Source: an uncultured Spirochaetales bacterium (GTDB lineage: Bacteria > Myxococcota_A > UBA9160 > SMWR01). From it: a DNA stretch of 64,000 bases. Below, piece by piece: positions 12,304 to 25,246 of this stretch (the stretch's first letter is position 1; each line of letters begins with the position of its first letter). The notes beneath the pieces were generated by a model. That model worked only from the letters and a program-made list of their open reading frames with translations. It did not search any database and was not told the origin of the DNA. The position numbers and the translations under genes were made by a program. The stretch covers positions 9,124 through 73,123 of the forward strand of contig CAZUYC010000015.1 in NCBI GenBank assembly GCA_964624475.1. Direction: 5' to 3'.

Positions 12304-12308
12304 GGCGC

Positions 12309-13754
12309 ATGAACGACCCCGTCGACCCCCTCGGCCTGCGCAAGGACGCCCCGCTCCTCGATGCATGGCTCGCCTTTCGCAGCGCCGGCAACGCGCCGTT
12401 CAGCACTCCGGGGCACAAGCAGCGGACGAACCTCGTCGGTCCGGTGGTGCTCGACGACATTCCCCTCTACGGAGGGGTCGACACGGTTCGCCAACAGGCG
12501 GGCGTGCTCGCCGACGCCGAGCGCAGGCTGGCGCGGCTCTTTGGCGCGGAGTGGGGACGCATCTCGGTGGGCGGCTCCACGCACGGCAACCAGACGCTCG
12601 TGCTCGCGCTGTGTCGGCCCGGCGACCAGGTGATCGTCACGCGAAACCTGCACCGCTCGCTCCTGCTCGGCATGGTCCTGGCCGGGGTGACCCCCGTGTG
12701 GGTGCGCCCCGACGTCGACCCGACCACCGCCCTGCCCACCCGTGTACCCGTCGACCGCGTCGAGCGGGCGTTCGCCGAGCACCCGGCGAGCCGAGCGGTC
12801 TTCCTGGTGGAGCCGACCTGGGTCGGCACGCTGTCGGACGTAGCCGGTCACGCCGAGGTCGCCCACGCGCACGGCGTCCCGCTCGTGGTGGACCAGGCCT
12901 GGGGCGCCTACTTCGGATTCCACCCCGGCGTGCCCCGCCACGCGCTGCAGGCGGGCGCGGACGCGCTGGTGACGAGCGCGCACAAGACGCTGCCCGCGTA
13001 CACGCAGTCCGCGCTGGTGCTGGCGCAAACCTCGCGGATCGACGCCGACCGCCTCGACCGCGCCTTCGAGGCGACGGCCACCACGAGCCCGTCCGGCACC
13101 ATCGCGGCGAGCGCCGATGCGGCGCGAGCGCTGCTGGCGCGGGACGGAGAGCGGCTGCTCGGGCACCTGCTGCGGATCGTCGATCACGCCCGCGAGCGGC
13201 TCCGGAAGGTGCGCGGGCTCGTGCTCCTCGACGACGTCGTCGACCGGAGGGTCCACCTCGATCGCGCGAAGCTCGCCATCAACATCTCTGGTACCGGTGC
13301 GACCGGCCTCGCGCTCGAGGACGACCTGGTGGCTGCCGGGACGCCGGTCGAGCTCGCCGACCGCGACACCGTCGTCCCGATCATCTCGATGAACGACGAC
13401 CAGGGGACGGTCGACCGCTTCGTGAACGCCCTCGTGGCGTCGATCGAGCGGCACCGCTCGGCACCGCGGAAGGTGCTGCCGTCGATCTCGTGGACGGTGG
13501 AGCCGCAGGTCGTGATGTTGCCGCGCGACGCCTACTTCGCTAAACACTGTACGGTGTCGGCCGAGGAGGCGATCGGCCGCGTGTCGGCCGAGCTCGTGGC
13601 GCCGTACCCGCCCGGGATCCCCGTGCTCGCGCCGGGGGAACGCATCACGCGCGAGGCGATCGAGGGGCTCCTGCGCGCGCTGGCCGACGGCACGCAGGTG
13701 CGCTACGCCGCGGACCGCACCCTGCGCACGTTCCAGGTCGTCGCGGACACCTGA
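12309..13754 (+). CDS. Orn/Lys/Arg decarboxylase family PLP enzyme (fold type I)
   Basis: ATG 12309 lies in frame within ORF 11127..13754, 5 nt after the upstream stop. Motifs ..FSTPGHKQ.., ..GGSTHGNQ.., ..DQAWGAY.., ..SAHKTLPA.. (PLP lysine). Confidence 0.85.
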   Translation: MNDPVDPLGLRKDAPLLDAWLAFRSAGNAPFSTPGHKQRTNLVGPVVLDDIPLYGGVDTVRQQAGVLADAERRLARLFGAEWGRISVGGSTHGNQTLVLALCRPGDQVIVTRNLHRSLLLGMVLAGVTPVWVRPDVDPTTALPTRVPVDRVERAFAEHPASRAVFLVEPTWVGTLSDVAGHAEVAHAHGVPLVVDQAWGAYFGFHPGVPRHALQAGADALVTSAHKTLPAYTQSALVLAQTSRIDADRLDRAFEATATTSPSGTIAASADAARALLARDGERLLGHLLRIVDHARERLRKVRGLVLLDDVVDRRVHLDRAKLAINISGTGATGLALEDDLVAAGTPVELADRDTVVPIISMNDDQGTVDRFVNALVASIERHRSAPRKVLPSISWTVEPQVVMLPRDAYFAKHCTVSAEEAIGRVSAELVAPYPPGIPVLAPGERITREAIEGLLRALADGTQVRYAADRTLRTFQVVADT

Positions 13755-13785
13755 GCCGGGCCCGACCGGGCCAGAGCGGGGAAGA

Positions 13786-13873
13786 GCGGGGACGGTCTTC
13801 AGATGTTTCGAATATTCAGATTCTCCCCAGAGGGCGAATCTGAATAAGCCAAACATCTGAAGACCGTCCCCGC
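13786..13873. repeat. 88-nt extended AT-richer hairpin between convergent genes (possible bidirectional terminator or MITE/REP-type element)
   Basis: A perfect 23-bp outer stem (13786-13808 with 13851-13873) and a perfect 11-bp inner stem (13813-23 with 13836-46), around a 12-nt apical region. It is preceded by the tandem 10-mer agagcgggga x2 (13773-13792). Confidence 0.7.
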
Positions 13874-13885
13874 CCTGCCTATGAC

Positions 13886-13929
13886 CTCCGCGCGCCTTCG
13901 GCTCGCTGCGCGCGCCTTTCGGCGCTTGC
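13886..13929 (+). repeat. REP-like intergenic element, copy A
   Basis: ctccgcgcgccttcggCTCGCTGCGCGcgcc, then hairpin gcgcc-tttc-ggcgc, then ttgc. It shares the 11-mer CTCGCTGCGCG and overall architecture with copies at 34043, 40848 and 56079/56141. Confidence 0.6.
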
Positions 13930-13952
13930 TCGGTCCGGCCTTCCGGCGGCGG

Positions 13953-15893
13953 CTACTGGTAGTCGCGCGGGATCTTCTCCTCCCAGGTCTTCTCGCGCAC
14001 GAGCGCGCCGTCCCGGAGCAGGCGCCGGGTGTAGCTCAGGGTGAAGTTCTCGAGGTCGCTGCGGAACCACGCGCGCGCCTCCCAGACGAGCGTGCGGTCC
14101 GGGAGCTCGACCGTCGTGCGGTACTCGCCGCGGACGGAGGTCGCTTCCGGATGATCGTCGCTGGCCTCGTGGGTGATCGTCTCCTCGAAGCGCTCCGTGC
14201 CCCAGGGGTAGCGGCTGCCGCCGCTGTTGCGGGCCGTCACCCTCGTCGTCCGGCTCTGCGGGTTGCGGTCGATCGAGGAGATCTCGCCGTATCCCGAGAC
14301 GGTCCCGGCGTCGAGGGTCTCGAAGCCCGGCAGCTGCGGGTCCTCCTCCGGGGGGGCGAAATCCGGCCGGGGCCGCCTTCCCTCGGGCACGACCGGGAGC
14401 ACGAGCCTCGTGGGTTCGTCGCCACCCAGGCGGAGCGAGGTGGTCATCGGGTAGGGGGTCGGCCAGAGCATCGGCCACTGGGAGTTGTTGATCGCGAGCC
14501 GCATCCGGTGCCCCTTCGGGAAGACCCATGACGTGAAGTGCATCTCGATGTCCAGGGAGACCTGCCGCCCGGGCACGAGTGGCTCGGGCTGCCTGGCCGA
14601 TTCGCGGTGCGCCCCGTTCATTCCGGCGCCCGCGACCTGCGTGACCGTGCCGTCGGGCGCGACATCGGAGAGGCGCGCGAACCAGTGGGCCAGCGGCGCG
14701 TCGGCCGACACCTGGAGGAGCGCCCGGGGGAGCCCCAGGATCTCCAGCTCCTCCTCCAGGGGCTCCGTGTCATAGACGAGGCTCATGGCGTCCGTCGGCC
14801 TCTGATCGTGGGCCGCGTCTCCCCACCACATCACGGGGCCGCCGGCTTCCACACCGGCCGTCGGGACGTAGCGAAGCCGGTGCGTGGCGGCGTCGGGGGC
14901 CTTCGCGCCGAGGCCATGGTCCGGCTGCGGGTAGAGCGTCCGCGCGCGGATGCGCTCGATCGGCCAGCCCTCCTCGAAGCGCCACTCCCCATCGACCTCT
15001 TCCAGGACGGGGCCCGGAGGGTGCCAGCGGCGCACGTACAGCGCGAAGCGCGGCTCGTCCAGGATCCCGGTGTCGCGCCCCTTGAGCCAGTGGTCGTACC
15101 AGCGCACCGCCTCGCGCCGCCACTCGATGCGCGGCTTCGGCTCGGCATCGTGCGGGAAGAAGTGGGACCACGGCCCGACGATCGCCTTCACGGGCGCCTT
15201 CACGTGCTCGAGCATGCGCGGCACGCTGTCGCGGTAGCCGTCGTACCAGCCGCCGATCACGAAGGTGGGGACGCGGATCGCGTCGTAGCGCGACCTCAGC
15301 GCCGTCCGGTCCCAGAACGGCCCGTCGCGCTGCTGGCGCTTGTAGGTCAGCATCCAGGGCCTCGTCTCGAAGCGGTTCCGGAAGTACGCCTCGTCGATCG
15401 CGTAGTCCGGCGCGCCGGGCCGCGCGTTGTCCAGGTCCTGGCTCATCTCCCACGAATCGACGTGCAGGATGCCGTCCATGAAGTGCACGTCGTCCTGGTA
15501 CAGGTCGTCGGTGGCGTCCACCGCGACGATCGCGCCGAGGGCGGGCGGGTTGCGCATCGCCATGTGGATCGAGTTGAAGCCTCCCCAGGAGATGCCGAAC
15601 ATGCCGACCTTGCCGCTCGAGAAGGGCTGCTTCGAGAGCCAGTCGATCACGAACTCGCCGTCTTCCTGCTCCTGATCGGTGTACTCGTACTCGATCAGCC
15701 GGCCCTCGCTGTTGCCGGTGCCCCGGATGTCGACGCGGGCCACGACGTAGCCGCGCCGCACGAAGTAGGAGTAGAGCGCGTGGTTCCGGGCCCGGGACTC
15801 GGCCTTGCGGTACGGAAGGTATTCGAGCAGCACCGGGTAGCGTTCGCCGGCCGCCCCTCCCGTCGGGACGAAGAGGTCCGCCGCCAGCCGCAC
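13953..15893 (-). CDS. CocE/NonD family hydrolase (S15 X-Pro dipeptidyl-peptidase type); true start probably upstream
   Basis: 646-aa ORF from GTG 15893, with ..GTGNSEG.. and GISWGGF (Ser nucleophile). The frame stays open upstream and encodes ..HRCVVVTAALLALADASPAAADEPSPPAYGIDLEEAWIPLPDG.. (signal-like), with no ATG/GTG/TTG. The nearest candidate is CTG at 16082. Confidence 0.85.
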   Translation of the reverse strand: MRLAADLFVPTGGAAGERYPVLLEYLPYRKAESRARNHALYSYFVRRGYVVARVDIRGTGNSEGRLIEYEYTDQEQEDGEFVIDWLSKQPFSSGKVGMFGISWGGFNSIHMAMRNPPALGAIVAVDATDDLYQDDVHFMDGILHVDSWEMSQDLDNARPGAPDYAIDEAYFRNRFETRPWMLTYKRQQRDGPFWDRTALRSRYDAIRVPTFVIGGWYDGYRDSVPRMLEHVKAPVKAIVGPWSHFFPHDAEPKPRIEWRREAVRWYDHWLKGRDTGILDEPRFALYVRRWHPPGPVLEEVDGEWRFEEGWPIERIRARTLYPQPDHGLGAKAPDAATHRLRYVPTAGVEAGGPVMWWGDAAHDQRPTDAMSLVYDTEPLEEELEILGLPRALLQVSADAPLAHWFARLSDVAPDGTVTQVAGAGMNGAHRESARQPEPLVPGRQVSLDIEMHFTSWVFPKGHRMRLAINNSQWPMLWPTPYPMTTSLRLGGDEPTRLVLPVVPEGRRPRPDFAPPEEDPQLPGFETLDAGTVSGYGEISSIDRNPQSRTTRVTARNSGGSRYPWGTERFEETITHEASDDHPEATSVRGEYRTTVELPDRTLVWEARAWFRSDLENFTLSYTRRLLRDGALVREKTWEEKIPRDYQ

Positions 15894-16177
15894 GCCGTCC
15901 GGTAGCGGAATCCACGCCTCCTCCAGATCGATCCCGTAGGCCGGAGGCGAGGGCTCATCCGCCGCGGCCGGGGAAGCGTCCGCTAGGGCGAGCAGGGCAG
16001 CCGTGACGACGACGCAGCGATGGATGGCGAGCGGGCCACCTTCACGGAGAGATCGGGGTGCGATGCCGGTGGGGCCCGTCAGAGTCGCTCCGACAGGGAC
16101 AGGGGCTTCCGCAGCCGTCGAGCGAGGCGTCCAAGCGCGGCCCGGTTCGATCCTTCGCGGGGGAGGAACCGGCGGAC

Positions 16178-16310
16178 ATGCCCGATCTCCCTCGCTCGCG
16201 TCGCCTCTTCTGGCCGCAGCTCATGCGCCGCGTCTTCGCGATCGACGTGCTCGGGTGTCCGCGCTGCGGCGGCGAGATGAGGATCCTCGCGGCGATCCAT
16301 CCGCCGGGCG
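16178..16310 (+). pseudogene. Relic of an IS91-family (Y2 HUH) transposase C-terminus
   Basis: The frame of ORF 16058..16777 reads ..MPDLPRSRRLFWPQLMRRVFAIDVLGCPRCGGEMRILAAIHPPG... This matches my memory of the conserved C-terminal zinc-ribbon block of IS91-type transposases. No upstream catalytic domain is present, and the fragment ends exactly at the stop of the minus-strand Sel1 gene. Confidence 0.5.
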
Positions 16311-16311
16311 C

Positions 16312-18339
16312 TCAAGGCCCGGTCCCCGGCTCCCGGGGATGCGGCCCGCCGTCCAGCCGGGAGAGGGCCGCGGCGTGCCCCTGCTCCGCCGCCCTGCGGT
16401 ACCAGCGCGCGGCCTCGGCGTCGTCCTGCGGCACGCCCCGGCCGGTGGCGTGCATAAAGCCGAGGTTGTACTGGGCGTCGGCGTTGCCCTGCTCGGCCGC
16501 CTTGCGGTACCAGCGCGCGGCCTCGGCGTCGTCCTGCGGCACGCCCCGGCCCATGGCGTGCAGCAACCCCAGGTTGAACTGGGCTTCGGCGTGCCCCTGC
16601 TCGGCCGCCTTGCGGCACCAGCGCGCGGCCTCGGCGTCGTCCTGCGGCACGCCCCGGCCCGTGGCGTGCAGCACCCCCAGGTCGGACTGCGCCGCGGCGT
16701 GCCCCTGCTCGGCCGCCTTGCGGTACCAGCGCGCAGCCTCGGCGTCGTCCTGCAGGACGCCCTGCCCGGCGGTGTAGAGCGCGCCCAGCGCGAACTGCGC
16801 ATGCGCATTGCCCTGCTCGGCCGCCCGGCGGTACCAGCGCGCGGCCTCGGCGACGTCCTGCACCACGCCCTCGCCCCGCGCGTACATCCCCGCCAGGTTC
16901 AGCTGCGCGGCGTCGTAATTCTGATCCGCCCCCCGGCGGTACCAGCGGACGGCCTCGGCGTCGTCCTTGGCCACACCCTCGCCGGTCGCGTAGAGCACGC
17001 CCAGGTTGGACTGGCCCACGGCGTCCCCGCGTTCCGCGGCCTCCCGAAAGTGCGAGAGGGCCTCCCCGACCCGTCCCTCGAAGAGCGACGCAAAGCCCAG
17101 CCGGTTGTGGCGCGCCAGGTCCTGATCGGCCCGGGTCTGCCCCTGGACCACCGCGAAGACCAGCGCCCACACCGACACGTAGGCGAGGTACCGGCGCCGC
17201 GGCGCCCATGCGGCGAGCAGCCTCGTGGGATCGAAGCGCCTCAGGGCCGGCGAGCCGACCGCGCGGTCGATCGCCTGGATCGTCGTGTTCAGGATCGGCA
17301 CCACCAGCAGCTTGTCGTAGAAGCTGTGGGCACCGACGTGCTCGAGGAAGGCGTAGGTCGCCACCACGCTCGCTCCGTACAGGACTCCGAAGGCGATGCG
17401 CCCCAGGTCGCTGCGGGGCGAGGTGGAAGGGTCGGTGAAGAGCAGGTGCATGCCGAGGAAGGTCGCGATCGGGATGTAGGTCCCGAAGACGAAGCCGGTG
17501 CCCGCCGCCGCGTGGAGGAGGATCAAGGCGTAGGTCGTCGCCACCGCGGACATCGTCATCAGCGTGACGCCGAAGAGGAGCTGCCCGGGCAGCCCGGCCA
17601 AGAAGATCCACATGTAGATGTAGGGGGGATAGAGCTGCGTGTCGGCGATCTCCTGGCCCCAGGTGACGTGCGTCGAGCCGGTCAGGAGCAGGACCACCGA
17701 GAAGAGCGACAGGGGCAGCGCCGAGGGGTTGAAGACGTGCACCCGCCGCCCGTCCTTGCTCCAGCGGATCAGCTCCTTGGCGGCGAAGCCCAGCGCCACC
17801 AGCAGGAACTGGAGGAAGAACCACTCCGGCTTGAACCAGAGGAAGAGGTTGATGCTGAGGACGATCGGGAACGGGCCGAATCCGAGCGTGTGGGAGTCGC
17901 GGCGGGACCAGACCAGCAGCGACTCGAAGGCGTAGGCGAAGACCAGCTGCGCCGCAATCAGGTCCGCGGAGTCGTAGACCTGGCGCCAGTACCAGCCCCA
18001 GTAGGCGAAGACCGAGAGCTGCGCGCAGGCCTGCACGTAGTGCTGGCTGCGCGGCACCACCTCGAGGGTGAGGCTGCGGCCGCGGCGGAGCGCCGCGGCG
18101 AGGAGCGCGGCGGTCCAGACGAGCAGCGCCGCGCCCGCGCTCCAGAACGACCAGACCAGGGCCGGGTCCCGCCGAGCCGACGGCAGCCAGGCGAAGGCGA
18201 AGAGCAGCGAGGCGAGGCACAGGGGCAGGCCGAGGGCCCGCGCCGGGTGCACGCCTTCGAAGCGCGCGACCGGCGGCACCCGCGCCGCCTCCTGCTTCGC
18301 CACGGACATGGTCCCACTCACTTCAGCGAGCGCCGCCAT
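16312..18339 (-). CDS. Fusion protein: RnfD/NqrB-like polytopic membrane domain plus about seven C-terminal Sel1-like repeats
   Basis: 675-aa ORF. The N-terminal ~430 aa have about 10 TM helices and contain VFNPSALPLSL and LLFTDPSTSPRS (compare FNPAM and FILTDPVTAS of RnfD/NqrB). The C-terminus has 36-aa repeats of the form (D)AEAARWYRKAAEQG.A.AQ.NLG.....G.GV.QD. Confidence 0.85.
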   Translation of the reverse strand: MAALAEVSGTMSVAKQEAARVPPVARFEGVHPARALGLPLCLASLLFAFAWLPSARRDPALVWSFWSAGAALLVWTAALLAAALRRGRSLTLEVVPRSQHYVQACAQLSVFAYWGWYWRQVYDSADLIAAQLVFAYAFESLLVWSRRDSHTLGFGPFPIVLSINLFLWFKPEWFFLQFLLVALGFAAKELIRWSKDGRRVHVFNPSALPLSLFSVVLLLTGSTHVTWGQEIADTQLYPPYIYMWIFLAGLPGQLLFGVTLMTMSAVATTYALILLHAAAGTGFVFGTYIPIATFLGMHLLFTDPSTSPRSDLGRIAFGVLYGASVVATYAFLEHVGAHSFYDKLLVVPILNTTIQAIDRAVGSPALRRFDPTRLLAAWAPRRRYLAYVSVWALVFAVVQGQTRADQDLARHNRLGFASLFEGRVGEALSHFREAAERGDAVGQSNLGVLYATGEGVAKDDAEAVRWYRRGADQNYDAAQLNLAGMYARGEGVVQDVAEAARWYRRAAEQGNAHAQFALGALYTAGQGVLQDDAEAARWYRKAAEQGHAAAQSDLGVLHATGRGVPQDDAEAARWCRKAAEQGHAEAQFNLGLLHAMGRGVPQDDAEAARWYRKAAEQGNADAQYNLGFMHATGRGVPQDDAEAARWYRRAAEQGHAAALSRLDGGPHPREPGTGP
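16381..17140. repeat. Tandem 108-bp DNA repeats encoding the Sel1 repeats
   Basis: The unit ..ccgccttgcggtaccagcgcgcggcctcggcgtcgtcctgcggcacgccccggcc.. recurs at 108-nt spacing. The first ~55 nt of the three or four promoter-distal units are almost identical, and units toward 17140 become progressively degenerate. Confidence 0.85.
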
Positions 18340-18549
18340 GATACCGGCCGGCGGGCCCGGCGTGAACCGGATGGGCGCGGCACTGCGGGGTCCTGCCGCG
18401 GCGGGCTCCGCTCAGAGGAAGCCGCGGCTCACGTGCACGAGGCGCTCGTAGGCGGCCGAGGTGGTCGCGCACAGGGCCTCGGGGGTTCCGAACTCGCCCG
18501 CAACTTCGTCGGGCCGGGGGAGGGACTGGGAGGACGCGGAGCCGATGGC

Positions 18550-20250
18550 TCAGATCTGTTGCAGCTCGAGCCGCCACTCGACCAGACGCTCTTCGACCTC
18601 CTTGCGACTCATCTTGCGATTCTCGACGTGGCTGTAGGGAGGACCGAGCTCCAATGCGCGTTCCATCGAGCCGATGGCCTCGGCCAACGATCGGCGTTTC
18701 TCCTCGCGCAGCCGCTCGTCGGTCGTGCCGAGCTGTCCGGCGAGCCACACCCTGGCCGTCCCGATGATGTAGAGCAGGTCGGCCCGGTAGGTGTAGTGCT
18801 TGGCGCGAGGCCGGATCCGGATCATCGCGGTCTCGACCTCCAGCTGGGCCTCCATAGCCGAGATGGCCGCCTGGGCGGCGCCCGGAGTGGAGGCCTCGAG
18901 GGCGTGGCCGAGCGGCGCGCGGCGGACGGAGTCTCCTGCGAGGACCCAGAACGTGACGCTCGAGAGCAGGATCGCCGGCACGAAGTAGAGACATTGCCGA
19001 AGGAACGCTTCCCGCGCCGTCGAGCGGGACACCCCTTCCCACCACGAATGCGCCGGGGCCCTGCTCTCCGTCCGCAGGATCCCCAGGTTCTCTTGGTTCT
19101 CCTTGTGGCGCACCTTCCAGATGAATCCGTCGAAATAGTAATGCGTGAGCGTCGACGTGAAGCCCACGGCGAAGATAACGCCCATGAACCAACGCGCGCC
19201 CATGTGAAGGCCATCGCCGCCGGACTCGATGTTGAACCGATTCGATTGCAGGAACGTGAGGATGAAACCGTAGAGGAGACAGGCGAGGACGAATGCGCTG
19301 GCCACGTTCCAGCCGCCACGGCTGAAAAGCTCCTGGAAGATGCCGGACCGCGCGGCGCCTTCGCGGCGAGACAGACCTCGATTGTACTTCCATACGATCG
19401 CCAGATACTGCGTCACGTGCACCATGCCCAGCACGGCGAATCCCAGGGCGAAGTTCCAATCGGGAACCAGTGCGGTGATCAGGGAATTCGGCACGTACGT
19501 CAGATACATCACTCCAAAGGTGATGATGACCAGCATCACCTTCGCGCGGCTGACGAAGTGACTCTGGGCGCGACAGAAGGCGAGATAGCCCAGGTAGGCG
19601 ACGGTCGCGGCCAGGGCGGCGACCAAGCAGAGCGCCTGCACGACCTGATAGACTCCGCCGTCGAGCAGGAACAGGATCGGGAAGCCGTGGAAGCGGTAGC
19701 TCTCGTACAACAGGTTCGGCAACCAGTCGAGCGTCGCCACCATGATGAAGATGAACCAGGTGCTGCAGATCATGAGGTCCATTCGCGAAGCCACCGCGCG
19801 GCGCACCTGGTTGTTGCGGTCGTAGATCCGCATGAACCCGTAATGTTGCATCAGGAAATGCCAAGGGTCCCAGAGCTGCAGAATGATCATCAGATACAGA
19901 ACGTTGGTCATGTCGTAGCCGCCGAGCACGACATACGCCGCCACGCACATCGCCAACGAGAAGGGCAGCACCGGACCGAGCAGGAGGCTCCAGCGAAACC
20001 GCCGCATCAGGTCTCGATCGCCATAGATGCGAATGAAGGTCGGGAGATGATGTGCGACGTTGAAGACCGCGAAGATCGTCAGCACGACTGCGGGGCCGAA
20101 CCACAGCACGAAGGCGAGGGCCCAGACCAACGAGATCAGGGGCGCGGCGATGATGAACAGGCCGTCCGACCGCCGGTCGATCACCCAATTCTGTTGGGTG
20201 CGCCGTTGGATGCGCGCTGAAGGGGACGCCTCAACGGTGGTCGACGTCAT
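18550..20250 (-). CDS. His-rich polytopic membrane protein with soluble helical C-terminal tail; no family recognised
   Basis: Frame of ORF 18550..20388, start at ATG 20250 (MTSTTVEASPSARIQRR..). Roughly 10-12 TM helices. His clusters NVAHHLPTF, WDPWHFLMQHYGF, MVHVTQY, LTHYYFDGFIWK. Visibly lower GC than the flanking genes. Confidence 0.8.
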   Translation of the reverse strand: MTSTTVEASPSARIQRRTQQNWVIDRRSDGLFIIAAPLISLVWALAFVLWFGPAVVLTIFAVFNVAHHLPTFIRIYGDRDLMRRFRWSLLLGPVLPFSLAMCVAAYVVLGGYDMTNVLYLMIILQLWDPWHFLMQHYGFMRIYDRNNQVRRAVASRMDLMICSTWFIFIMVATLDWLPNLLYESYRFHGFPILFLLDGGVYQVVQALCLVAALAATVAYLGYLAFCRAQSHFVSRAKVMLVIITFGVMYLTYVPNSLITALVPDWNFALGFAVLGMVHVTQYLAIVWKYNRGLSRREGAARSGIFQELFSRGGWNVASAFVLACLLYGFILTFLQSNRFNIESGGDGLHMGARWFMGVIFAVGFTSTLTHYYFDGFIWKVRHKENQENLGILRTESRAPAHSWWEGVSRSTAREAFLRQCLYFVPAILLSSVTFWVLAGDSVRRAPLGHALEASTPGAAQAAISAMEAQLEVETAMIRIRPRAKHYTYRADLLYIIGTARVWLAGQLGTTDERLREEKRRSLAEAIGSMERALELGPPYSHVENRKMSRKEVEERLVEWRLELQQI

Positions 20251-20412
20251 GCTCGACGACTCGCCTGCCCGTATCCCGAGCGTGTGGAAGTATCGCGCGC
20301 CTGCGTCGGGTGGGGCAAGCCGCAGGCGATGGCACCCCACGAGCACCGGGCGCGCCCGTCGACACGTCGGCGCGTGGAGCATGGGCATCGGGATGGGCGG
20401 CCTCGGGGCGGG

Positions 20413-21172
20413 CTAGGGCCAGGGAAGCTTACGGGCGAGCAGGTCGTCATAGGTTTCGCGCCGCACCACCGCGCCGCAACGCCGGCGCGGCAGAAGACGA
20501 CGGCCGGCCGCAGGGCGCCATTGTAGTGGTTGACGAGCGTGTGCGTGTAGGCGCCCGTCATCGGCATCGCGACCAGGTCACCCGGCCTGGGATCGTGGAG
20601 GGGTACCTGGGTAGCGAGCCGGTCGCCCGATTCGCAGTGCCGCCCCACCAGCTCGACGGGGTCGCCGCCTCCGACGCGTCCGACGAGGGTCGCGTCGAAG
20701 CGGTGCCCCATGTAGACCGAGGCCTCGAAGTTGTCGGCGATGCCGCCGTCGACGGCGACGAAGGTGGGCTCGCCTCTTTTCACGGTGACGATCCGGTAGA
20801 CCGTCGTGGTCGACCTCGCCACGAGCGAGCGGCCGGGCTCGAGCACGATGCGGGCCGCGTCGGGTAGGAAGCGGCTCGCGGCCCCGGTGACGGCGTCGAG
20901 ATAGCGGTCCAGGTCGGGCGCCGGTTCGCCGCGCCGGTACTGGACGCCGAGCCCGCCGCCGAGGTCGTAGACGTCGAACGCGCCGAGCCGGGCGATCACC
21001 TCGATGGCCTCGGCGTACGGCTCCAGGTGGAGGATCTGCGACCCGAGGTGCGGGTTCCGAACGCGCCCGCGACGTCGTCGAGCCGGCAGCCGCCGACCAG
21101 GAGCGAGCCATCCTCGGCGAGGCGCGTGGTGTCCGGGAAGAGCGCCAGCAGGTCCTCGACGTCGGATCCCAT
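20413..21172 (-). pseudogene. lysA: Diaminopimelate decarboxylase pseudogene (internal deletion plus frameshift)
   Basis: ATG 21172 opens MGSDVEDLLALFPDTTRLAEDGSLLVGGCRLDDVAGAFGT (LysA N-terminus with the FGTP motif). At about 21050 the sequence jumps, in another frame, to PHLGSQILHLEPY..DLGGGLG..EPGRSLV..CESGD..GAYTHTLVNHYNGALRPAVVF (the LysA C-terminal half). A second frameshift near 20480 is needed to read the expected end ..VVRRETYDDLLARKLPWP* (stop 20413-15). About 150 aa, including the PLP-lysine region, are missing. Confidence 0.75.
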
Positions 21173-21307
21173 GTCGCGACCGGTTTCCGTGACGGCCCTG
21201 ACTCGGGGAAAAAGTCGACACGCGGGCCGTCGGCCAGTTTATACTCTTGCGACCCGGGTCGGGCCGAGGAGTGCCCCAAGGGGATTCGAACGCGCGAGGA
21301 GCCGGGA

Positions 21308-22354
21308 TTGACTCAGTTTTCCCTCGAATTCCGGTCGGTCGAGACCGCGCTGGCGCGGGCGGCCGGGCGACCCGCGCCCATCCTGGCCCGCCGGGGGGCA
21401 GCGCTGCTCCTGGCCCTGTGCCTCCTGGGGCAGAGCGCCGGGGCGCGCGAGGAGTGGGTCGACAGGGAGCCCCGCTGGATCCCGTCTCTCCACTTCGGAT
21501 TCGACGCCTTCGAATACGACACGCAAGCGAGCGTCCTGAACCAGATCAATCCGCCCAGACAAGCGGGGACCCAGAACGACGGATCCCGCCTGATCATGCT
21601 CCAGTTCGGTGGTGAGGTGATGGGGCCGCTGTTCAAGGGGCTGCCGGGTCGCCCGCGCCTCTTCGCCCAGGCGGGAGCGCAGTGGAGCCCCTTCGCGAGC
21701 GACAACGTCTTCGAGCTCGGCGTTGGGGGAAACACGGCGGCCCACATCAGCGGATATCAGCAAGTCCTGGCACGCGACGAGGCCCGGGGATGCCAGGGCG
21801 CGGGCTGCCCTCCTCGTCCCGAGATCTTCAGCGGAGAAGGGAGCGAGATCGACGCGAATTTCCTGAATCCATCCTGGAACGCCGCGTTGGGCGTCGCCTT
21901 CACCTTTCCCGTGGCCGAGTCCCTGTTGCTGCGGGTGAAGCCCTCGATCGCCTACAACCTCGATCGGATCGAGCTCTCCGGAACGATCACGACGGTGGTC
22001 GACACCGGCGAAACCATGTTCCTACCAGTTGCGAACCCGCCTCCGCCCCATCCAGCACCCTGCATCGGGAACAGCTGCCCCGTGCCGGTGTTCGAGATCC
22101 ATCGGGGCTCCGCGAGCGACAGCATCACCCAGCACAGCCTCGGGCCGGGGCTCGAGCTGGAGCTGGTCCTGTTCCGCGGGGTCCGGCCGATCCGGGCCTC
22201 GCTCTACGCGGATACCCGCTTCCTGTGGCTGCTCGGCGACCGCACCACGGAGTTCTCGGGCTCCGTCGCATCCTACGAGGTTCGCAGGGACCCGTTCGCG
22301 ATCCGGGGTGGCGCCGGATTCCGATTCAGCTGGATGGGATCCGGCGGACGCTGA
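21308..22354 (+). CDS. Putative outer-membrane beta-barrel protein
   Basis: TTG start. Signal-like RRGAALLLALCLLGQSAGA. Alternating-hydrophobic strand segments (AALGVAFTFPV, LLLRVKPSIAYNL, LELELVLF, IRASLYADTRFLWLL). Near-terminal ..GGAGFRFSW. Confidence 0.6.
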   Translation: MTQFSLEFRSVETALARAAGRPAPILARRGAALLLALCLLGQSAGAREEWVDREPRWIPSLHFGFDAFEYDTQASVLNQINPPRQAGTQNDGSRLIMLQFGGEVMGPLFKGLPGRPRLFAQAGAQWSPFASDNVFELGVGGNTAAHISGYQQVLARDEARGCQGAGCPPRPEIFSGEGSEIDANFLNPSWNAALGVAFTFPVAESLLLRVKPSIAYNLDRIELSGTITTVVDTGETMFLPVANPPPPHPAPCIGNSCPVPVFEIHRGSASDSITQHSLGPGLELELVLFRGVRPIRASLYADTRFLWLLGDRTTEFSGSVASYEVRRDPFAIRGGAGFRFSWMGSGGR

Positions 22355-22377: not shown

Positions 22378-23811
22378 TCAGCGCACCCCGTAGCCCAGGG
22401 CGCGCAGCTGGTTCAGCTGCATCTCGTCGATCTCGACGCTGGGCGCGTCCCCTCCCCAGGGCGGAGGCCGACTCCGGAGATAGGTGCTGGCCTTCTCGCT
22501 CAGAGCCCCGATCAGCTCGGGCCGCTCCCCCGCGAGATCCCGCTGCTCGCGGGGATCCTCCCACTTGTCGTAGAGCTCCGAGCGCTTCGGCGCCGCCGCG
22601 CGATAGATGAGGCGCCAGCGTCCCTCGTTCATGGCCACCATGGGGCGAGGCCGCTGCTCCGTCCTCCCCCAGCTCTGGTCGATCTGCGCGAACGCTACGC
22701 CATCGCCGGCGGGCTCCGCCTCGCCCCCCGCCGCGGCGACGATCTGCGGCACGAGCGATCGCCCGTCCGCGTCGGGGAGCGGGGGCAGGCCCACGAGCTC
22801 CAGCACGGTGGGCCAGAGATCCACGTTCTCCGAGCGCGCCTCGACGACGATCCCGGGCTCGAGCCGGAAGGGGAAGCTCAGGATGAACGGAGTCTGGGTC
22901 ACCTCGCCGTACACGTCCCGGGCATGCCCTTCGCCATCGTGCTCGCCGAACGCCTCGCCGTGGTCGGCAGCGAACACGATGAGCGTGCGCTCGCGCAGGC
23001 CGCGCTGCGCCAGCTCGGCGAACAGGTGCCCGAGGAGGCTGTCGACCCAGCGGATCGAGTTGTCGTAGGAGTCCGAGTAGCTCGTGCCGAAGAGCGCGGC
23101 GTCCTCGGAGTAGGAGTACTGATGGACGTCCATCAGGTGCAGGTAGAGGAACCAGCGCTCGTGGCCATGGGCGCGCAGGAACTCGAGGGCGGAGACGAGG
23201 ATATCGGCGTCGTCGCCCTCGAGCCCGATGTTCGGGGTCTCGAGGCGCCGGATCCGGGCGTGGTCGCGCCGCTGGGAGCGCGGGCTCAGGTAGATCTCGA
23301 AGCCCTGGGAGAAGCCGAAGTTCGCGGCGATCCAGCCGTTCCTCCAGATTCCCGCGGTGCGGAACCCCGCCTCCTGGAAGATCTCCGCGGGCATGCGCGC
23401 GTCCGGAGAGATCGCGTCGTAGGCGCGCAACACGCGCGTTCGAACCGGATAGAGCCCCGTCCAGAGCGACGCCATCGAGCACTTCGTCCAGGACGACTGG
23501 GAGACCTGCTGTGCGAAGCGGATGCCGGTCGCCGCGAGCGCGTCGAGGTTCGGGCTGGTCTCGCGCTCGTATCCGTAGGCGTGGAGCCGGTCCGCCCGCA
23601 GCGTGTCGACGAGGATGAAGAGCACGTTCAGGTCGCTGCGGGCCCGCAGGGCGAGCAGGTCGTCGAGCGCGCCGCGCGGGCGCGGGTCCGCATCGACGCC
23701 GCCGACGCCCAGGCGATGCAGGCCGGCGGCGATCAGGGCGGCCGCGGCGACGGCCGCGAGCACCCCCCACATCCGCCGGTGCGCTCTCGCTCTGCGCTCG
23801 GGCTCGCTCAT
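22378..23811 (-). CDS. Sulfatase-like hydrolase/transferase (alkaline phosphatase superfamily), membrane-anchored
   Basis: 477-aa ORF with an N-terminal TM segment (WGVLAAVAAAALIAAGL). Motifs ..NVLFILVDTLRADRL.., ..SSWTKCSMASLWTG.., ..AADHGEAFGEH... It lacks the canonical C/S-x-P-x-R formylglycine motif. Confidence 0.8.
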   Translation of the reverse strand: MSEPERRARAHRRMWGVLAAVAAAALIAAGLHRLGVGGVDADPRPRGALDDLLALRARSDLNVLFILVDTLRADRLHAYGYERETSPNLDALAATGIRFAQQVSQSSWTKCSMASLWTGLYPVRTRVLRAYDAISPDARMPAEIFQEAGFRTAGIWRNGWIAANFGFSQGFEIYLSPRSQRRDHARIRRLETPNIGLEGDDADILVSALEFLRAHGHERWFLYLHLMDVHQYSYSEDAALFGTSYSDSYDNSIRWVDSLLGHLFAELAQRGLRERTLIVFAADHGEAFGEHDGEGHARDVYGEVTQTPFILSFPFRLEPGIVVEARSENVDLWPTVLELVGLPPLPDADGRSLVPQIVAAAGGEAEPAGDGVAFAQIDQSWGRTEQRPRPMVAMNEGRWRLIYRAAAPKRSELYDKWEDPREQRDLAGERPELIGALSEKASTYLRSRPPPWGGDAPSVEIDEMQLNQLRALGYGVR

Positions 23812-23911: not shown

Positions 23912-25210
23912 TCAGCGCCTCCGCAGGCGAGCCAGGCCCACCAGGCCCGCGATCCCGGCCGCCAGCAGCACCACCCCCCCCGGCTCCGGCAGGAACATCA
24001 CCTTCATCGATTGAATCCTGAACGCCTGGAAGTTGGTGATGATGTTGTTGGGATCCTGGCTGTCTCTCAGGTAGTTATGGCGGAGTCTCGGGCGAACCAG
24101 TGACAGGATTCGGGTCGGGTACACGCTGCCCATGTAGCCGATCTTGTTGGAGGGGGTCATGGCCGGCGCCTTGTCGTCGCCACCGGTCTGCGTCAGTCGG
24201 GTGAGGTAGGTGCCGAGCCCCTGATACCCCTCGACCCTTCCGCTCGTCCACGGGACGAGCAGAGCCAGATAGTGGGCCTGCGCCGAGACGTAGTTCATGG
24301 TGTAAGGGGCCGTGGCGTCGCACTTGCAACCCGCTGTCCGGGGGTAGGGGCCCGTCTGGCAAGAGGGGGTGGCAAGGCACTGCTTGTGTATTTGGAAATC
24401 CGTCAACAGGAAGCGCGTCACCGGGCCGCTCGAAGTGACCTCACCGAGGTTCGTGGTGTCGCTCGAGGGCGGCCCGATGGTGCCCCCATACGCCCTGAAG
24501 TAGTCCGGCTTGAACTTGGTGATGAACTGATAGAAGTTGCCGTTGGGGCCGAAGAGGATCCGCATCGTGCCGCTGAATTTGTTCGGTCCCGGCGTGACCT
24601 GGATGGATCCAGCCCGCTTGAAGTCGTACCTTCCGCTGAAGGCGGTGGTCGGGGTGACCGGGGCGCCCGTCCCGAGGTTCGGCAGGCCGGTATCCATCCC
24701 CATCTTCGTGTTGTCGCCGAACGGCAGCTTGTTTCCATTCGTCGTCGGGAAGACCACGGTGGTGACGGCCGTGGGCCCGGGGAAACCCATCGAGGCCCCG
24801 CCCGCCCCGAAGCGCCCCTGCCCGTTGTAGTTGGAGGAGATCCCGCCAGATATGGGATAGCCCATGAAGCACATCCCTTGGTCGTAGTCGCCGCAATAGG
24901 CGATGTCGTAGTATTGGATGAAGCTCTTCGGAAGCACGACCTGGTTCGCGGTCTTGAACACATAGGCCGTCGCGGGCGCGTACATCACCGTTGCGTACGG
25001 TTTTGATTTCATCCCCATTACCGTCATCGCATACTTGGTCTGGGGGGGCTGGCTGGATGGATCGGGGATGGCGAAGACGCTCAAGAAACTCCGCTGCACC
25101 CGGAACAACGCCTTCGACGCTTGCGCGGGGTGCGGGACTAAGAGCAGCGCAGCCACTACGCCGAGAGCGACGAGAGCGACGATCCTCTGACTCGACTTGA
25201 GCGGCCTCAT
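23912..25210 (-). CDS. PEP-CTERM-sorted secreted protein, Gly/Thr/Pro-rich with Cys clusters; function unknown
   Basis: ATG 25210 lies inside ORF 23912..27448 (GGAGG 10 nt upstream). Signal MRPLKSSQRIVALVALGVVAALLLVPHPAQA. The C-terminus FLPEPGGVVLLAAGIAGLVGLARLRRR has the PEP motif, a TM helix and a basic tail. Lower GC than the surroundings. Confidence 0.8.
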   Translation of the reverse strand: MRPLKSSQRIVALVALGVVAALLLVPHPAQASKALFRVQRSFLSVFAIPDPSSQPPQTKYAMTVMGMKSKPYATVMYAPATAYVFKTANQVVLPKSFIQYYDIAYCGDYDQGMCFMGYPISGGISSNYNGQGRFGAGGASMGFPGPTAVTTVVFPTTNGNKLPFGDNTKMGMDTGLPNLGTGAPVTPTTAFSGRYDFKRAGSIQVTPGPNKFSGTMRILFGPNGNFYQFITKFKPDYFRAYGGTIGPPSSDTTNLGEVTSSGPVTRFLLTDFQIHKQCLATPSCQTGPYPRTAGCKCDATAPYTMNYVSAQAHYLALLVPWTSGRVEGYQGLGTYLTRLTQTGGDDKAPAMTPSNKIGYMGSVYPTRILSLVRPRLRHNYLRDSQDPNNIITNFQAFRIQSMKVMFLPEPGGVVLLAAGIAGLVGLARLRRR

Positions 25211-25246
25211 GTAGACTACCCCTCCGGGTGGTTCGCGACGCATCCC

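What the first reader, a model, noticed from the sequence alone, without database searches (positions are those of the whole stretch)
16312..20250. Orphan two-gene membrane module: His-rich polytopic protein plus RnfD/NqrB-like domain fused to Sel1 repeats
Two co-oriented genes lie about 210 nt apart.

The first (566 aa) has about a dozen TM helices with four His-containing motifs placed in or near helices (AHH, WHxxxQHYG, HVTQY, THYYFDGFIWK), plus a soluble helical tail. This looks like a membrane-embedded metal or haem site, but it matches no family I can name.

The second fuses about 430 aa of polytopic membrane domain to seven Sel1 repeats. The membrane domain carries the two signature motifs I associate with RnfD/NqrB (FNPSA.. 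and ..FTDPSTSP), but without an obvious S(G)AT FMN-attachment motif. I do not know of an RnfD-like domain occurring alone or joined to Sel1 repeats.

The module is compositionally atypical and is flanked by an IS91 relic and a dead lysA. That context suggests a horizontally acquired cassette, possibly a membrane redox or transport device with a periplasmic protein-interaction arm.
Basis: inference. Interest (0 to 1): 0.6.

Follow-up and report, generated by a model that had tools for sequence, protein, structure and literature searches.

The report
Two unrelated membrane genes, not a module
The two neighbouring genes are real and each belongs to a large, uncharacterised family of membrane proteins with a periplasmic helical-repeat arm, but they sit together only in this genome, so they are not a conserved two-gene device.

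Summary
Both genes exist as described, on the minus strand: gene 1 at 18550-20250 (566 aa) and gene 2 at 16312-18309 (665 aa with the supported start).

Gene 1 is an 11-helix protein. Four histidines stay invariant even among relatives only 22-30% identical. It has no Pfam or NCBIfam match and no fold match in the PDB.

Gene 2 has a membrane domain with the RnfD/NqrB fold, plus six clear Sel1 repeats and one degenerate repeat predicted to face the periplasm.

- 0 of 89 independent gene-1-family loci carry a gene-2 relative within about 10 kb.
- 0 of 84 gene-2-family loci carry a gene-1 relative.

Each family has partners of its own:
- Gene-1 relatives sit in arrays of periplasmic amidases and asparaginases, or are fused to TPR repeats.
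- Gene-2 relatives carry TPR, Sel1 or Cys-rich tails. Subfamilies of them are followed directly by a periplasmic FGE-like gene or by an unknown secreted protein.

The adjacency lies between an ISCR/IS91 transposase fragment and a truncated lysA, so local rearrangement is the likeliest cause. Third-codon-position GC content (GC3) is not anomalous for either gene.

Function is unproven for both. My inference is a His/metal-site membrane enzyme or transporter for gene 1, and a membrane conduit serving periplasmic partners for gene 2.

The parts
18550..20250 (-). Gene 1 CDS (566 aa plus stop): polytopic His-motif membrane protein with a helical tail
   Evidence: ORF. Identical to P0001 and 65-78% identical to its close homologues. 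The AF2 model has pLDDT 91.5 and pTM 0.89.
18937..20250 (-). Gene 1 membrane domain, residues 1-438: about 11 TM helices, N-terminus cytoplasmic
   Evidence: AF2 helices combined with the K/R distribution: about 31 K/R in the loops assigned to the cytoplasm and about 2 in those assigned to the periplasm. No PDB fold match (Foldseek TM <= 0.19). No PDB sequence match.
20017..20055 (-). His motif 1, AHHLPTFIRIYGD (inner half of TM2): H67, P70, R74 and Y76 invariant
19819..19872 (-). His motif 2, WDPWHFLMQHYGFMRIYD (TM4): W127, W130, H131, Q135, G138, R141 and Y143 invariant
19381..19419 (-). His motif 3, HVTQYLAIVWKYN (TM8): H278, Q281, Y282, W287 and N290 invariant
19108..19146 (-). His motif 4, THYYFDGFIWKVR (TM10): H370, D374, G375, F376 and W378 invariant
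18553..18936 (-). Gene 1 C-terminal helical domain (residues 439-566), predicted periplasmic. Distant relatives carry TPR repeats in its place.
   Evidence: AF2 helices 441-565. Topology. TPR-fused relatives. A weak hhalign match of its end to the TPR capping motif (E 0.017).
18338..18366 (-). Promoter-like hexamers (TTCACG, 17-nt spacer, TATCAT) just upstream of gene 2's supported start, within the 240-nt gap between the genes
   Evidence: (1 site found, 0.4 expected) and the sequence. This is a consensus match only.
16312..18309 (-). Gene 2 CDS (665 aa plus stop): RnfD/NqrB-like membrane domain, an extra TM helix, then Sel1 repeats
   Evidence: ORF. The start is supported by P0121 and by homologue N-termini. 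Pfam results.
17134..18309 (-). Gene 2 membrane domain, residues 1-392: about 13 TM helices, N-terminus cytoplasmic. The last helix carries the chain out to the periplasm.
   Evidence: AF2 pLDDT 84.7. Foldseek top hits are NqrB and RnfD (probability 1.0, TM 0.36-0.54), followed by Rh/Amt channels. K/R distribution. Homologues are 58-71% identical.
17245..17469 (-). Segment homologous to the C-terminal core of RnfD (LFTDPST...GRIAFG...LN...ID)
   Evidence: hhalign of A3 against E. coli RsxD: 70 columns, 31% identity, E 9.8e-5. Pfam PF03116 E 0.002. tblastn with RsxD.
17722..17733 (-). FNPS motif (residues 193-196); H191, F193, N194 and P195 are invariant in the family
17671..17682 (-). TGST (residues 210-213) at the periplasmic end of TM7. 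It resembles the [ST]GA[ST] flavinylation motif but is not the canonical form.
   Evidence: Column counts: T 97%, G 75%, a variable position, then T/S 100%. Only 3 of 60 members read TGA[ST], and none has the D-x-x-[ST]-[GS]-A-[ST] form.
16363..17103 (-). Sel1-repeat domain: one degenerate repeat plus six canonical 36-aa repeats, predicted periplasmic
   Evidence: Pfam Sel1 E 9.6e-64 with 6 stretches. Sequence. Topology. Related tails are Cys-rich Sel1-like repeats, which I infer form disulfides and so belong in the periplasm.
16130..16312 (+). Relic of an ISCR/IS91-family transposase (about 60 C-terminal residues only), abutting gene 2's stop codon in convergent orientation
   Evidence: NCBIfam ISCR_clade_Ia E 2e-8, profile positions 421-479 of 509. 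Translation.
20481..21050 (-). Truncated lysA (diaminopimelate decarboxylase) fragment. It lacks about 196 N-terminal residues and its C-terminal end.
   Evidence: TIGR01048 E 8.6e-42, profile positions 197-398 of 417. Pfam matches only the end of the PLP domain plus the C-terminal sheet domain.

Best explanation
**Overall.** These are two independent genes that happen to lie next to each other in this genome. They are not a functional pair. Each belongs to its own widespread, uncharacterised family with the same general architecture: a polytopic inner-membrane domain followed by a periplasmic helical-repeat domain.

**Gene 2**
- Shown: its membrane domain has the RnfD/NqrB fold and shares RnfD's C-terminal signature. 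It lacks the canonical FMN-attachment motif and any Rnf, Nqr or ApbE neighbours.
- Shown: one extra TM helix follows the core, ahead of the six-to-seven Sel1 repeats.
- Inferred: that helix places the repeats in the periplasm, from topology and from the Cys-rich tails of relatives.
- Shown: relatives swap the tail for TPR or Cys-rich Sel1-like repeats. In subfamilies the next gene encodes a membrane-anchored periplasmic FGE/SUMF1-like protein or an unknown secreted protein of about 400 aa.
- Inferred: the membrane domain acts as a conduit, for electrons through a non-covalent cofactor or for a small solute or ion. It serves a periplasmic partner or client protein held by the repeat arm.

**Gene 1**
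- Shown: it is an 11-TM protein. H67, H131, H278, H370, Q135, Q281, D158, D374, R74, R141 and K237 are invariant across the superfamily.
- Inferred from helix positions: the His residues sit on the four out-to-in helices at the depth of the cytoplasmic leaflet. The tail, which is a TPR array in distant relatives, faces the periplasm.
- Shown: gammaproteobacterial members lie inside operon-like arrays of Sec- or Tat-exported amidases and asparaginases. Other members lie next to other C-N hydrolases, Na+/H+ antiporters or type IX secretion system (T9SS) cargo genes.
- Inferred: it is a metal- or His-dependent membrane enzyme or transporter linked to periplasmic amide and peptide processing.

**The adjacency.** It most likely arose by local rearrangement, since an ISCR/IS91 relic lies on one side and a truncated lysA on the other. 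This is inferred.
For: **Non-co-occurrence**
- tblastn and an HMM of gene 2's membrane domain find nothing in 89 independent gene-1-family loci with up to 10 kb of flank.
- The closest gene-1 homologues (69-74% identical) have other neighbours.
- The gene-1 HMM finds nothing in 80 metagenomic gene-2-family loci, 558 kb in total. It also finds nothing in four further gene-2 contexts.

**Separate partners**
- Amidase genes lie in 36 gene-1-family loci and asparaginase pairs in 19. They are co-oriented and carry signal peptides.
- An FGE-like gene lies directly downstream in 22 of 84 gene-2-family loci.
- An unknown secreted protein lies directly downstream in at least 18 gene-2-family loci.

**Gene 2's fold and homology**
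-.
- No Rsx or ApbE homologues lie nearby.

**Gene 1**
- Invariant residues.
- A confident model without a PDB fold match.
- 1,378 50%-identity clusters.
- TPR fusions.

**Local context**
- Rearrangement scars.
- A promoter-like site before gene 2.
- GC3 within the window's range for both genes, on opposite sides of the mean.
Against: - Adjacency was tested only within about 6-10 kb, and on many short metagenomic contigs. Co-occurrence at the whole-genome level was not tested, so a looser functional link cannot be excluded.
- Both families use the same kind of periplasmic TPR module: 35% identity over 214 aa between members of the two families. That hints at a shared type of process.
- The genes are co-oriented, and no terminator-like site was found between them. 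Co-transcription in this organism is therefore possible.
- The functional assignments rest on context and architecture only.
- Clustering of the four His residues in space was inferred from helix positions, not measured on coordinates.
Confidence: 0.8

Rival explanations
1. Genes 1 and 2 form a horizontally acquired two-gene cassette whose products work together as a membrane redox or transport device.
For: - The genes are co-oriented, 240 nt apart, with no terminator-like site between them.
- They are flanked by a transposase relic and a broken lysA.
- Both proteins have a periplasmic helical arm.
- The TPR modules of the two families are related.
Against: - No co-occurrence in 89 gene-1-family loci or 84 gene-2-family loci.
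- Close homologues of each gene have different neighbours.
- Each family has other conserved partners.
- GC3 is 0.85 for gene 1 and 0.95 for gene 2, on opposite sides of the window mean, so there is no shared foreign signature.
- A promoter-like site lies just before gene 2.
Confidence: 0.07
2. Gene 2 is a genuine flavin-carrying electron-transfer protein of the Rnf/Nqr kind. It would be flavinylated at the conserved T-G-x-[T/S] site (TGST, residues 210-213) and would pass electrons to periplasmic partners such as the FGE-like oxidase seen in relatives.
For: - It has the RnfD/NqrB fold and C-terminal signature.
- T210 is conserved in 97% of members and position 213 is T or S in 100%, at the periplasmic end of TM7. 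Three of 60 members read TGA[ST].
- In 22 loci it is translationally coupled to a periplasmic FGE/SUMF1-like protein. From general knowledge, that enzyme family needs reducing equivalents.
- Precedent exists for NqrB/RnfD-like subunits in non-canonical electron-transfer systems (PMC11334425).
Against: - No member has the canonical D-x-x-[ST]-[GS]-A-[ST] motif, and the two middle positions vary.
- No ApbE, FMN_bind, RnfG or NqrC gene lies in the window or in four family contexts.
- The window's own copy has Sel1 repeats and no FGE-like gene.
- The fold is also shared with Amt/Rh channels.
Confidence: 0.25
3. Gene 1 is a transporter or channel, not an enzyme. It would take up the products or substrates of the periplasmic amidohydrolases it is clustered with: ammonium, amides, amino acids or peptides. 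It would be analogous by context to AmiS/UreI in amidase and urease operons.
For: - It is the recurrent integral-membrane gene inside arrays of exported amidases and asparaginases.
- Elsewhere its neighbours are other C-N hydrolases, aminotransferases and Na+/H+ antiporters.
- The weak top Foldseek hits are all secondary transporters.
Against: - All Foldseek TM-scores are <= 0.19, so no transporter fold is actually matched.
- No internal repeat was detected.
- The invariant His, Gln, Asp, Arg and Lys residues concentrate at the cytoplasmic leaflet and face, which looks more like a catalytic or cofactor site.
- Periplasmic TPR fusions are more typical of enzymes or scaffolds that act on periplasmic macromolecules. 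This point rests on general knowledge.
Confidence: 0.3

Closest known systems
RnfD / NqrB subunits of the Rnf and Na+-NQR complexes (Pfam PF03116, TIGR01946)
   Same: - Gene 2's membrane domain has the same overall fold (Foldseek probability 1.0, TM 0.36-0.54).
- Its C-terminal core is homologous: TDPxT, GRxxFG, LxN, ID (hhalign E 9.8e-5).
- It has an FNP-type half-helix motif.
   Different: - It scores below the curated thresholds (17.9 against 27.7 bits; 14 against 207 bits).
- It has no canonical FMN-attachment motif.
- No other Rnf or Nqr subunits and no ApbE lie nearby.
- It has additional N-terminal helices and a 13th TM helix, then periplasmic Sel1 or TPR repeats.
- It occurs as a stand-alone gene.
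NqrB/RnfD-like subunit of the two-gene 'Nqr/Rnf-like' flavinylation-associated systems (mSystems 2024, PMC11334425)
   Same: An RnfD/NqrB-like membrane domain that lacks the conserved flavinylated Thr and works outside the canonical six-subunit complexes.
   Different: [quoted passage not shown] Gene 2 has neither. Its added domain is a periplasmic Sel1 or TPR array.
Amt/Rh ammonium channels
   Same: They are second-tier structural matches to gene 2's membrane domain (TM 0.24-0.45). This fits the known fold relationship between NqrB/RnfD and channel proteins, which I take from general knowledge.
   Different: There is no sequence similarity. The matches are weaker than those to NqrB and RnfD. 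No twin-His pore signature was examined or claimed.
Polytopic membrane enzymes with periplasmic or lumenal TPR arms, such as TMTC/PMT-type GT-C glycosyltransferases (from general knowledge)
   Same: The architecture matches: a multi-pass membrane catalytic domain followed by extracytoplasmic TPR or Sel1 repeats. Both families here have it.
   Different: - Neither membrane domain gives a Pfam GT-C, PMT or Wzy hit.
- Gene 1's conserved residues lie toward the cytoplasmic side, not in a first periplasmic loop.
- Gene 2 has the RnfD fold.
AmiS/UreI-type channels in amidase and urease operons (from general knowledge)
   Same: Resemblance by genomic context only. Like them, gene-1 relatives are the membrane protein encoded among amide-hydrolysing enzymes.
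   Different: There is no sequence or fold relationship. Gene 1 is 11 TM helices and 566 aa with a periplasmic domain. The window's own copy has no amidase or asparaginase nearby.

Membership tests
RnfD/NqrB (PF03116 NQR2_RnfD_RnfE; TIGR01946 rnfD) | Sequence score above the curated family threshold | tested here: not met
   Pfam gives 17.9 bits against a cut-off of 27.7 (E 0.002) and covers only residues 267-331. TIGR01946 gives 14 bits against 207. rnfD_Methano gives 16.8 bits against 400. phmmer against PDB sequences finds no NqrB or RnfD.
RnfD/NqrB (PF03116 NQR2_RnfD_RnfE; TIGR01946 rnfD) | Shared membrane fold | tested here: met
   The AF2 model (pLDDT 84.7) has NqrB and RnfD chains as its top Foldseek PDB hits, with probability 1.0 and TM 0.36-0.54.
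RnfD/NqrB (PF03116 NQR2_RnfD_RnfE; TIGR01946 rnfD) | Homologous C-terminal signature (TDPxT...GRxxFG...N...ID) | tested here: met
   hhalign of the family alignment against E. coli RsxD: 70 columns, 31% identity, E 9.8e-5, probability 58%.
RnfD/NqrB (PF03116 NQR2_RnfD_RnfE; TIGR01946 rnfD) | Covalent FMN on a Thr in a D-x-x-[ST]-[GS]-A-[ST] motif | tested here: inconclusive
   No canonical motif occurs in any of 60 members. A partly conserved T-G-x-[T/S] string (TGST, residues 210-213) sits at the periplasmic end of TM7, and 3 of 60 members read TGA[ST]. Residue-level equivalence to RsxD T187 could not be established. Flavin content cannot be tested here.
RnfD/NqrB (PF03116 NQR2_RnfD_RnfE; TIGR01946 rnfD) | Encoded with the other Rnf/Nqr subunits and ApbE | tested here: not met
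   tblastn with E. coli RsxA, B, C, G, E and Ftp (ApbE) finds nothing in the 64-kb window or in four family contexts. The precomputed Pfam lists for neighbouring genes show none.
Nqr/Rnf-like two-subunit flavinylation system (PMC11334425) | C-terminal cytosolic NAD-binding domain (PF00175) and an adjacent FMN-bind subunit | tested here: not met
   Pfam finds only Sel1 repeats after the membrane domain. No FMN_bind neighbours.
Sel1 repeat proteins (PF08238) | Tandem 36-aa Sel1 repeats above the family threshold | tested here: met
   E 9.6e-64, 210 bits against a cut-off of 30.7, with 6 stretches. A seventh, degenerate repeat is visible in the sequence.
Membrane His-box di-iron enzymes (FA_desaturase / FA_hydroxylase), considered for gene 1 | Pfam membership and the HxxxH / HxxHH box pattern | tested here: not met
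   No Pfam hit for gene 1 or for any of 31 family members at E <= 5. Its motifs are single His residues on four helices, not His boxes.
MBOAT acyltransferases, considered for gene 1 because of the W-x-x-W-H motif | Pfam MBOAT membership or the MBOAT fold | tested here: not met
   No Pfam hit. No MBOAT structure appears among the Foldseek PDB matches, and all TM-scores are <= 0.19. The motif resemblance is recalled from memory only.
   Four invariant His residues plus Gln and Asp lie at similar membrane depth, which is compatible with the idea. No cofactor prediction or coordinates were available.
Conserved two-gene module (gene 1 plus gene 2) | Adjacency or co-occurrence in other genomes | tested here: not met
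   0 of 89 independent gene-1-family loci and 0 of 84 gene-2-family loci.

The most novel reading that the evidence does not exclude
Both genes could represent undescribed kinds of envelope machinery.

- Gene 1 would be the founding example of a large superfamily (at least 1,378 50%-identity clusters) of membrane enzymes with an intramembrane four-His site. Their fold is absent from the PDB. They would act across the membrane on periplasmic clients recognised by a TPR-type arm, or would service batteries of exported amidases and asparaginases.
- Gene 2 would represent an RnfD/NqrB fold freed from the Rnf and Nqr complexes and repurposed as a stand-alone conduit. It would feed periplasmic partners (an FGE-like oxidase, an unknown secreted protein, or Sel1/TPR-bound clients).
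- The related TPR modules in the two families would then point to one shared, still unknown periplasmic process.
Probability: 0.3. Interest if true: 0.65.

Novelty: new variant of a known kind. Interest (0 to 1): 0.4.

Why it matters
As a "module" the finding dissolves, and that saves effort on a false lead. The two proteins are still useful entry points into large uncharacterised families.

- **Gene 2.** The RnfD/NqrB fold occurs widely as a stand-alone protein with periplasmic TPR, Sel1 or Cys-rich arms, and with its own conserved partners. This extends recent work on non-canonical Nqr/Rnf-like systems.
- **Gene 1.** It defines a confident, PDB-orphan membrane fold with a strictly invariant His/Gln/Asp site. 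In cultured gammaproteobacteria (Hydrocarboniphaga, Nevskia, Solimonas) it is embedded in striking arrays of exported amidases, so its function can be tested genetically.

Tried and rejected
**Searches that found nothing**
- Pfam, NCBIfam and PADLOC scans of gene 1.
- PDB sequence searches, with the gene 1 family profile and with the gene 2 membrane-domain sequence alone. The profile search for gene 2's family was swamped by TPR hits.
- Foldseek of the gene 1 model against the PDB: no real match.
- Literature searches for the amidase-cluster context and for RnfD-domain architectures. The one useful result was the Nqr/Rnf-like precedent.
- The cluster-member look-up returned no organism names.

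**Tools unavailable**

**Tests that came back negative**
- Internal duplication in gene 1, tested by hhalign of its two halves: not significant (E 0.37).
- Homology between the two membrane domains: none.
- A partner hidden in the 578-aa gene upstream of gene-2 homologue P0138: it is not a gene-1 relative.

**Ideas rejected**
- Compositional evidence for horizontal transfer, after the GC3 analysis.
- Gene 1 as an MBOAT, desaturase-type or GT-C enzyme (see the membership tests).

**Unreliable result**
- The pairwise global alignment of gene 2 with RsxD was too ambiguous to place the FMN threonine.

Full report

Yes, with small corrections. Two long ORFs lie head-to-tail on the minus strand.

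Gene 1 (18550-20250, 566 aa) is identical to database protein P0001. Its closest homologues are 65-78% identical.

Gene 2's first ATG is at 18339. The N-termini of homologues and the database entry P0121 support the start at 18309 (MSVAKQ...). That gives 665 aa and a 240-nt gap. The only promoter-like site in 15900-21400 is TTCACG-17-TATCAT at 18366-18338. It lies just before this start, and the 18339 ATG falls inside its -10 hexamer. No terminator-like site separates the genes.

The four His motifs of gene 1 are present. Gene 1 matches nothing in Pfam or NCBIfam, nor do 31 of its relatives scanned one by one.

Gene 2 has six significant Sel1 repeats (E 1e-63) and a degenerate first repeat. 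It also gives a sub-threshold NQR2_RnfD_RnfE hit.

The flanks are as described. A 60-residue C-terminal fragment of an ISCR/IS91-family transposase lies at 16130-16312 on the plus strand (E 2e-8). A lysA fragment covers only profile positions 197-398 of 417.

The claim of atypical composition does not hold. GC3 is 0.85 for gene 1 and 0.95 for gene 2. The mean for 30 long ORFs in the window is 0.893 +/- 0.039. Gene 1's low total GC (0.63) comes from codon positions 1 and 2, which reflects its hydrophobic and aromatic amino-acid content.

**2. Are the two genes a module?**

No conserved pairing was found, in either direction.

*From the gene 1 side.* A scan of one genome per GTDB species returned 317 relatives, and I examined the best 79 loci with up to 10 kb of flank. 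I added contigs for close and distant homologues. Neither tblastn nor an HMM of gene 2's membrane domain finds a hit in any of 89 independent loci. The only hits are the window's own sequence and identical contigs. The closest relatives (69-74% identical) are flanked instead by an M20/M28 peptidase and an aminotransferase. One of them is flanked by a fatty-acid hydroxylase and an S9 peptidase.

*From the gene 2 side.* I examined four contexts from long contigs and 80 metagenomic loci totalling 558 kb, of which 47 carry at least 4 kb of extra DNA. None contains a gene-1-family ORF at HMM E <= 1e-3.

**3. What is gene 2?**

*A conserved family with variable tails.* The membrane domain (residues 1-392) has more than 4,252 relatives at 90% clustering. 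The 120 best hits listed are 58-71% identical to it. Their C-terminal tails vary: TPR, Sel1, a short Cys-rich Sel1-like domain, or little at all. The Sel1 fusion is therefore not unique to this window.

*Relationship to RnfD/NqrB.* An AF2 model (pLDDT 84.7) has NqrB and RnfD chains as its best PDB matches (probability 1.0, TM 0.36-0.54), followed by Rh/Amt channels. The family profile aligns with E. coli RsxD over the C-terminal 70 columns (LFTDPST...GRIAFG...LN...ID) at 31% identity and E 9.8e-5. The protein fails the curated family thresholds, however.

*No Rnf or Nqr context.* No Rsx subunits and no ApbE lie in the window or in the family contexts examined.

*The FMN-attachment site.* No canonical D-x-x-[ST]-[GS]-A-[ST] motif exists in 60 members. 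A T-G-x-[T/S] string (TGST, residues 210-213) at the periplasmic end of TM7 is well conserved, and 3 of 60 members read TGA[ST]. I leave flavinylation as inconclusive.

*Topology (inferred).* The AF2 helices and the positive-inside rule give 13 TM helices with the N-terminus inside. About 23 K/R residues fall in loops assigned to the cytoplasm and about 3 in those assigned to the periplasm. RnfD's cytoplasmic C-terminal motif is followed by one extra helix, which places the Sel1 repeats in the periplasm. The Cys-rich tails of relatives support this, on the inference that they form disulfides.

*The family's own partners.*
- In 22 of 84 loci the next gene encodes an FGE/SUMF1-like protein with an N-terminal membrane anchor. 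It is co-oriented and its ORF overlaps gene 2's homologue.
- In at least 18 soil loci the next gene encodes a secreted protein of about 400 aa with no known family.
- The window has neither partner.

*Precedent.* RnfD/NqrB-like domains outside Rnf/Nqr have been described: a subunit lacking the flavinylated Thr, fused to a cytosolic NAD-binding domain and paired with an FMN-bind subunit (PMC11334425). Gene 2's architecture is different from that one.

*Most likely mechanism (inferred).* The membrane domain is a conduit for electrons or for a small solute. It serves periplasmic partners or clients held by the repeat arm.

**4. What is gene 1?**

*Structure.* The AF2 model is confident (pLDDT 91.5, pTM 0.89). 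Foldseek finds nothing real in the PDB (all TM-scores <= 0.19), and profile searches of PDB sequences find nothing either.

*Topology (inferred).* The helices and K/R counts give 11 TM helices with the N-terminus inside. About 31 K/R residues lie in cytoplasmic loops and about 2 in periplasmic loops. The helical tail (residues 439-566) is periplasmic.

*Family size and distant relatives.* An exhaustive profile search finds 1,378 50%-identity clusters at E <= 1e-3. The distant ones come from Gemmatimonadota, Latescibacterota, Bryobacterales and Planctomycetota. They keep the membrane domain and replace the tail with TPR repeats. Sources annotate them only as 'tetratricopeptide repeat protein'.

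*Invariant residues.* In an alignment of 47 sequences, the 42 distant relatives among them 22-30% identical to gene 1, these residues are invariant:
- H67, P70, R74 and Y76
- W127, W130, H131, Q135, G138, R141 and Y143
- D158 and K237
- H278, Q281, Y282, W287 and N290
- H370, D374, G375, F376 and W378

The four His residues lie on the four out-to-in helices (TM2, 4, 8 and 10), roughly 8-15 residues above the cytoplasmic boundary. Each is followed by conserved Arg, Lys, Tyr, Asn or Asp at the cytoplasmic face. I infer a single cytoplasm-proximal metal, cofactor or catalytic site.

*Genomic context.*
- In Nevskiales, Steroidobacteraceae, Cellvibrionaceae and one Opitutales MAG, the gene sits inside co-oriented arrays of up to about 11 amidase-signature paralogs (36 loci).
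- A pair of asparaginase genes lies directly downstream in 19 loci.
- The amidases and asparaginases whose N-termini I inspected carry Sec or Tat signal peptides.
- In Planctomycetota and in the window's own clade the neighbours are other C-N hydrolases (S58, S51, M20/M28, creatininase, arginase, MlrC), aminotransferases and Na+/H+ antiporters.
- A TPR-fused relative directly follows three T9SS cargo genes.
- The window itself has no amidase or asparaginase.

*Reading.* Gene 1 is a His/metal-dependent membrane enzyme or transporter tied to periplasmic amide and peptide processing. I cannot choose between enzyme and transporter.

**5. A link between the two families?**

Their membrane domains are not detectably homologous. 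The TPR-fused members of both families do carry a closely related TPR module. It is 35% identical over 214 aa and includes the distinctive C-terminal capping motif. The end of gene 1's tail aligns weakly to that motif (E 0.017).

This suggests both membrane domains were combined with the same kind of periplasmic recognition arm, and so may act in a similar sort of envelope process. It does not make them partners.

**6. Why are they adjacent here?**

The pair lies between a transposase relic that abuts gene 2's stop codon and a lysA gene truncated at both ends. Neither gene's usual neighbours are present. Local rearrangement is the simplest explanation, though this is inferred. Co-transcription in this organism remains possible.

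**7. Verdict**

The 'orphan two-gene module / acquired cassette' interpretation is not supported, while the RnfD-like assignment and the periplasmic arm are.

Gene 2 is a new variant of a known fold in an uncharacterised but very common architecture. Gene 1 belongs to a large uncharacterised superfamily with no structural precedent in the PDB. Interest is moderate (0.4). The module is not real, but both families, and especially the amidase-array association of gene 1's relatives in cultured bacteria, are tractable leads.

Noticed in passing
L022-L063 and L074; for example L042 6594-19286, L050 2749-17366, L036 1000-19000: In Gammaproteobacteria (Nevskiales, Steroidobacteraceae, Cellvibrionaceae) and one Opitutales MAG, the gene-1 homologue sits inside co-oriented arrays of up to about 11 amidase-signature paralogs. 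A pair of asparaginase genes lies directly downstream. Those whose N-termini I inspected have Sec or Tat signal peptides.
   Followed up: partly
L168 2048-3172, L145 7401-8336, L152 4309-5331 and 19 further loci among L135-L180: In 22 of 84 gene-2-family loci, a membrane-anchored periplasmic FGE/SUMF1-like gene (PF03781) follows the RnfD-like gene on the same strand with overlapping ORFs. This is a real conserved pair for this family.
   Followed up: partly
L104 1923-3230, L108 7562-8854, L113 3236-4462 and at least 15 further soil loci; also L088 10945-12177: A secreted protein of about 400 aa with no Pfam or NCBIfam family lies directly downstream of gene-2 homologues. Paralogs often lie upstream on the other strand.
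   Followed up: partly
P0313 residues 599-812 aligned with P0163 residues 417-628: TPR-fused members of the gene-1 superfamily and of the gene-2 family carry a related TPR module. It is 35% identical over 214 aa and includes the terminal motif RD..EAVRLA...LD.LAAAYA..GRF.EA..TAE.A..LA....LA.QI..R..LYR.
   Followed up: no
L098-L100, 1-8887: A TPR-fused gene-1 relative (P0381, Gemmatimonadota) starts 16 nt after the last of three co-oriented genes. Those genes encode discoidin-domain proteins with T9SS C-terminal sorting domains.
   Followed up: no
window 23912-25400 (-): The long ORF that ends at 23912 finishes with ...LPEPGGVVLLAAGIAGLVGLARLRRR. This looks like a PEP-CTERM sorting signal, which would imply an exosortase system in this organism (translation; motif recognised from general knowledge).
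   Followed up: no
window 18338-18366 (-) and 18309/18339: The only sigma-70-like match in 15900-21400 lies just upstream of gene 2. Its -10 hexamer contains the first in-frame ATG (18339). Together with the homologue N-termini, this moves the start to 18309.
   Followed up: yes
window 16003-20220 (+): A 1,405-codon open frame runs antisense across both genes. This is a typical high-GC artefact and not a gene. Its position-specific GC was not examined separately.
   Followed up: no
window 10525-15893 and 22378-23811: The surrounding genes encode an M3-like peptidase, an Orn/Lys/Arg decarboxylase, an S15 X-Pro dipeptidyl peptidase and a sulfatase-family protein. This peptide and amino-acid catabolic setting resembles the neighbourhoods of gene-1 relatives elsewhere.
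   Followed up: partly
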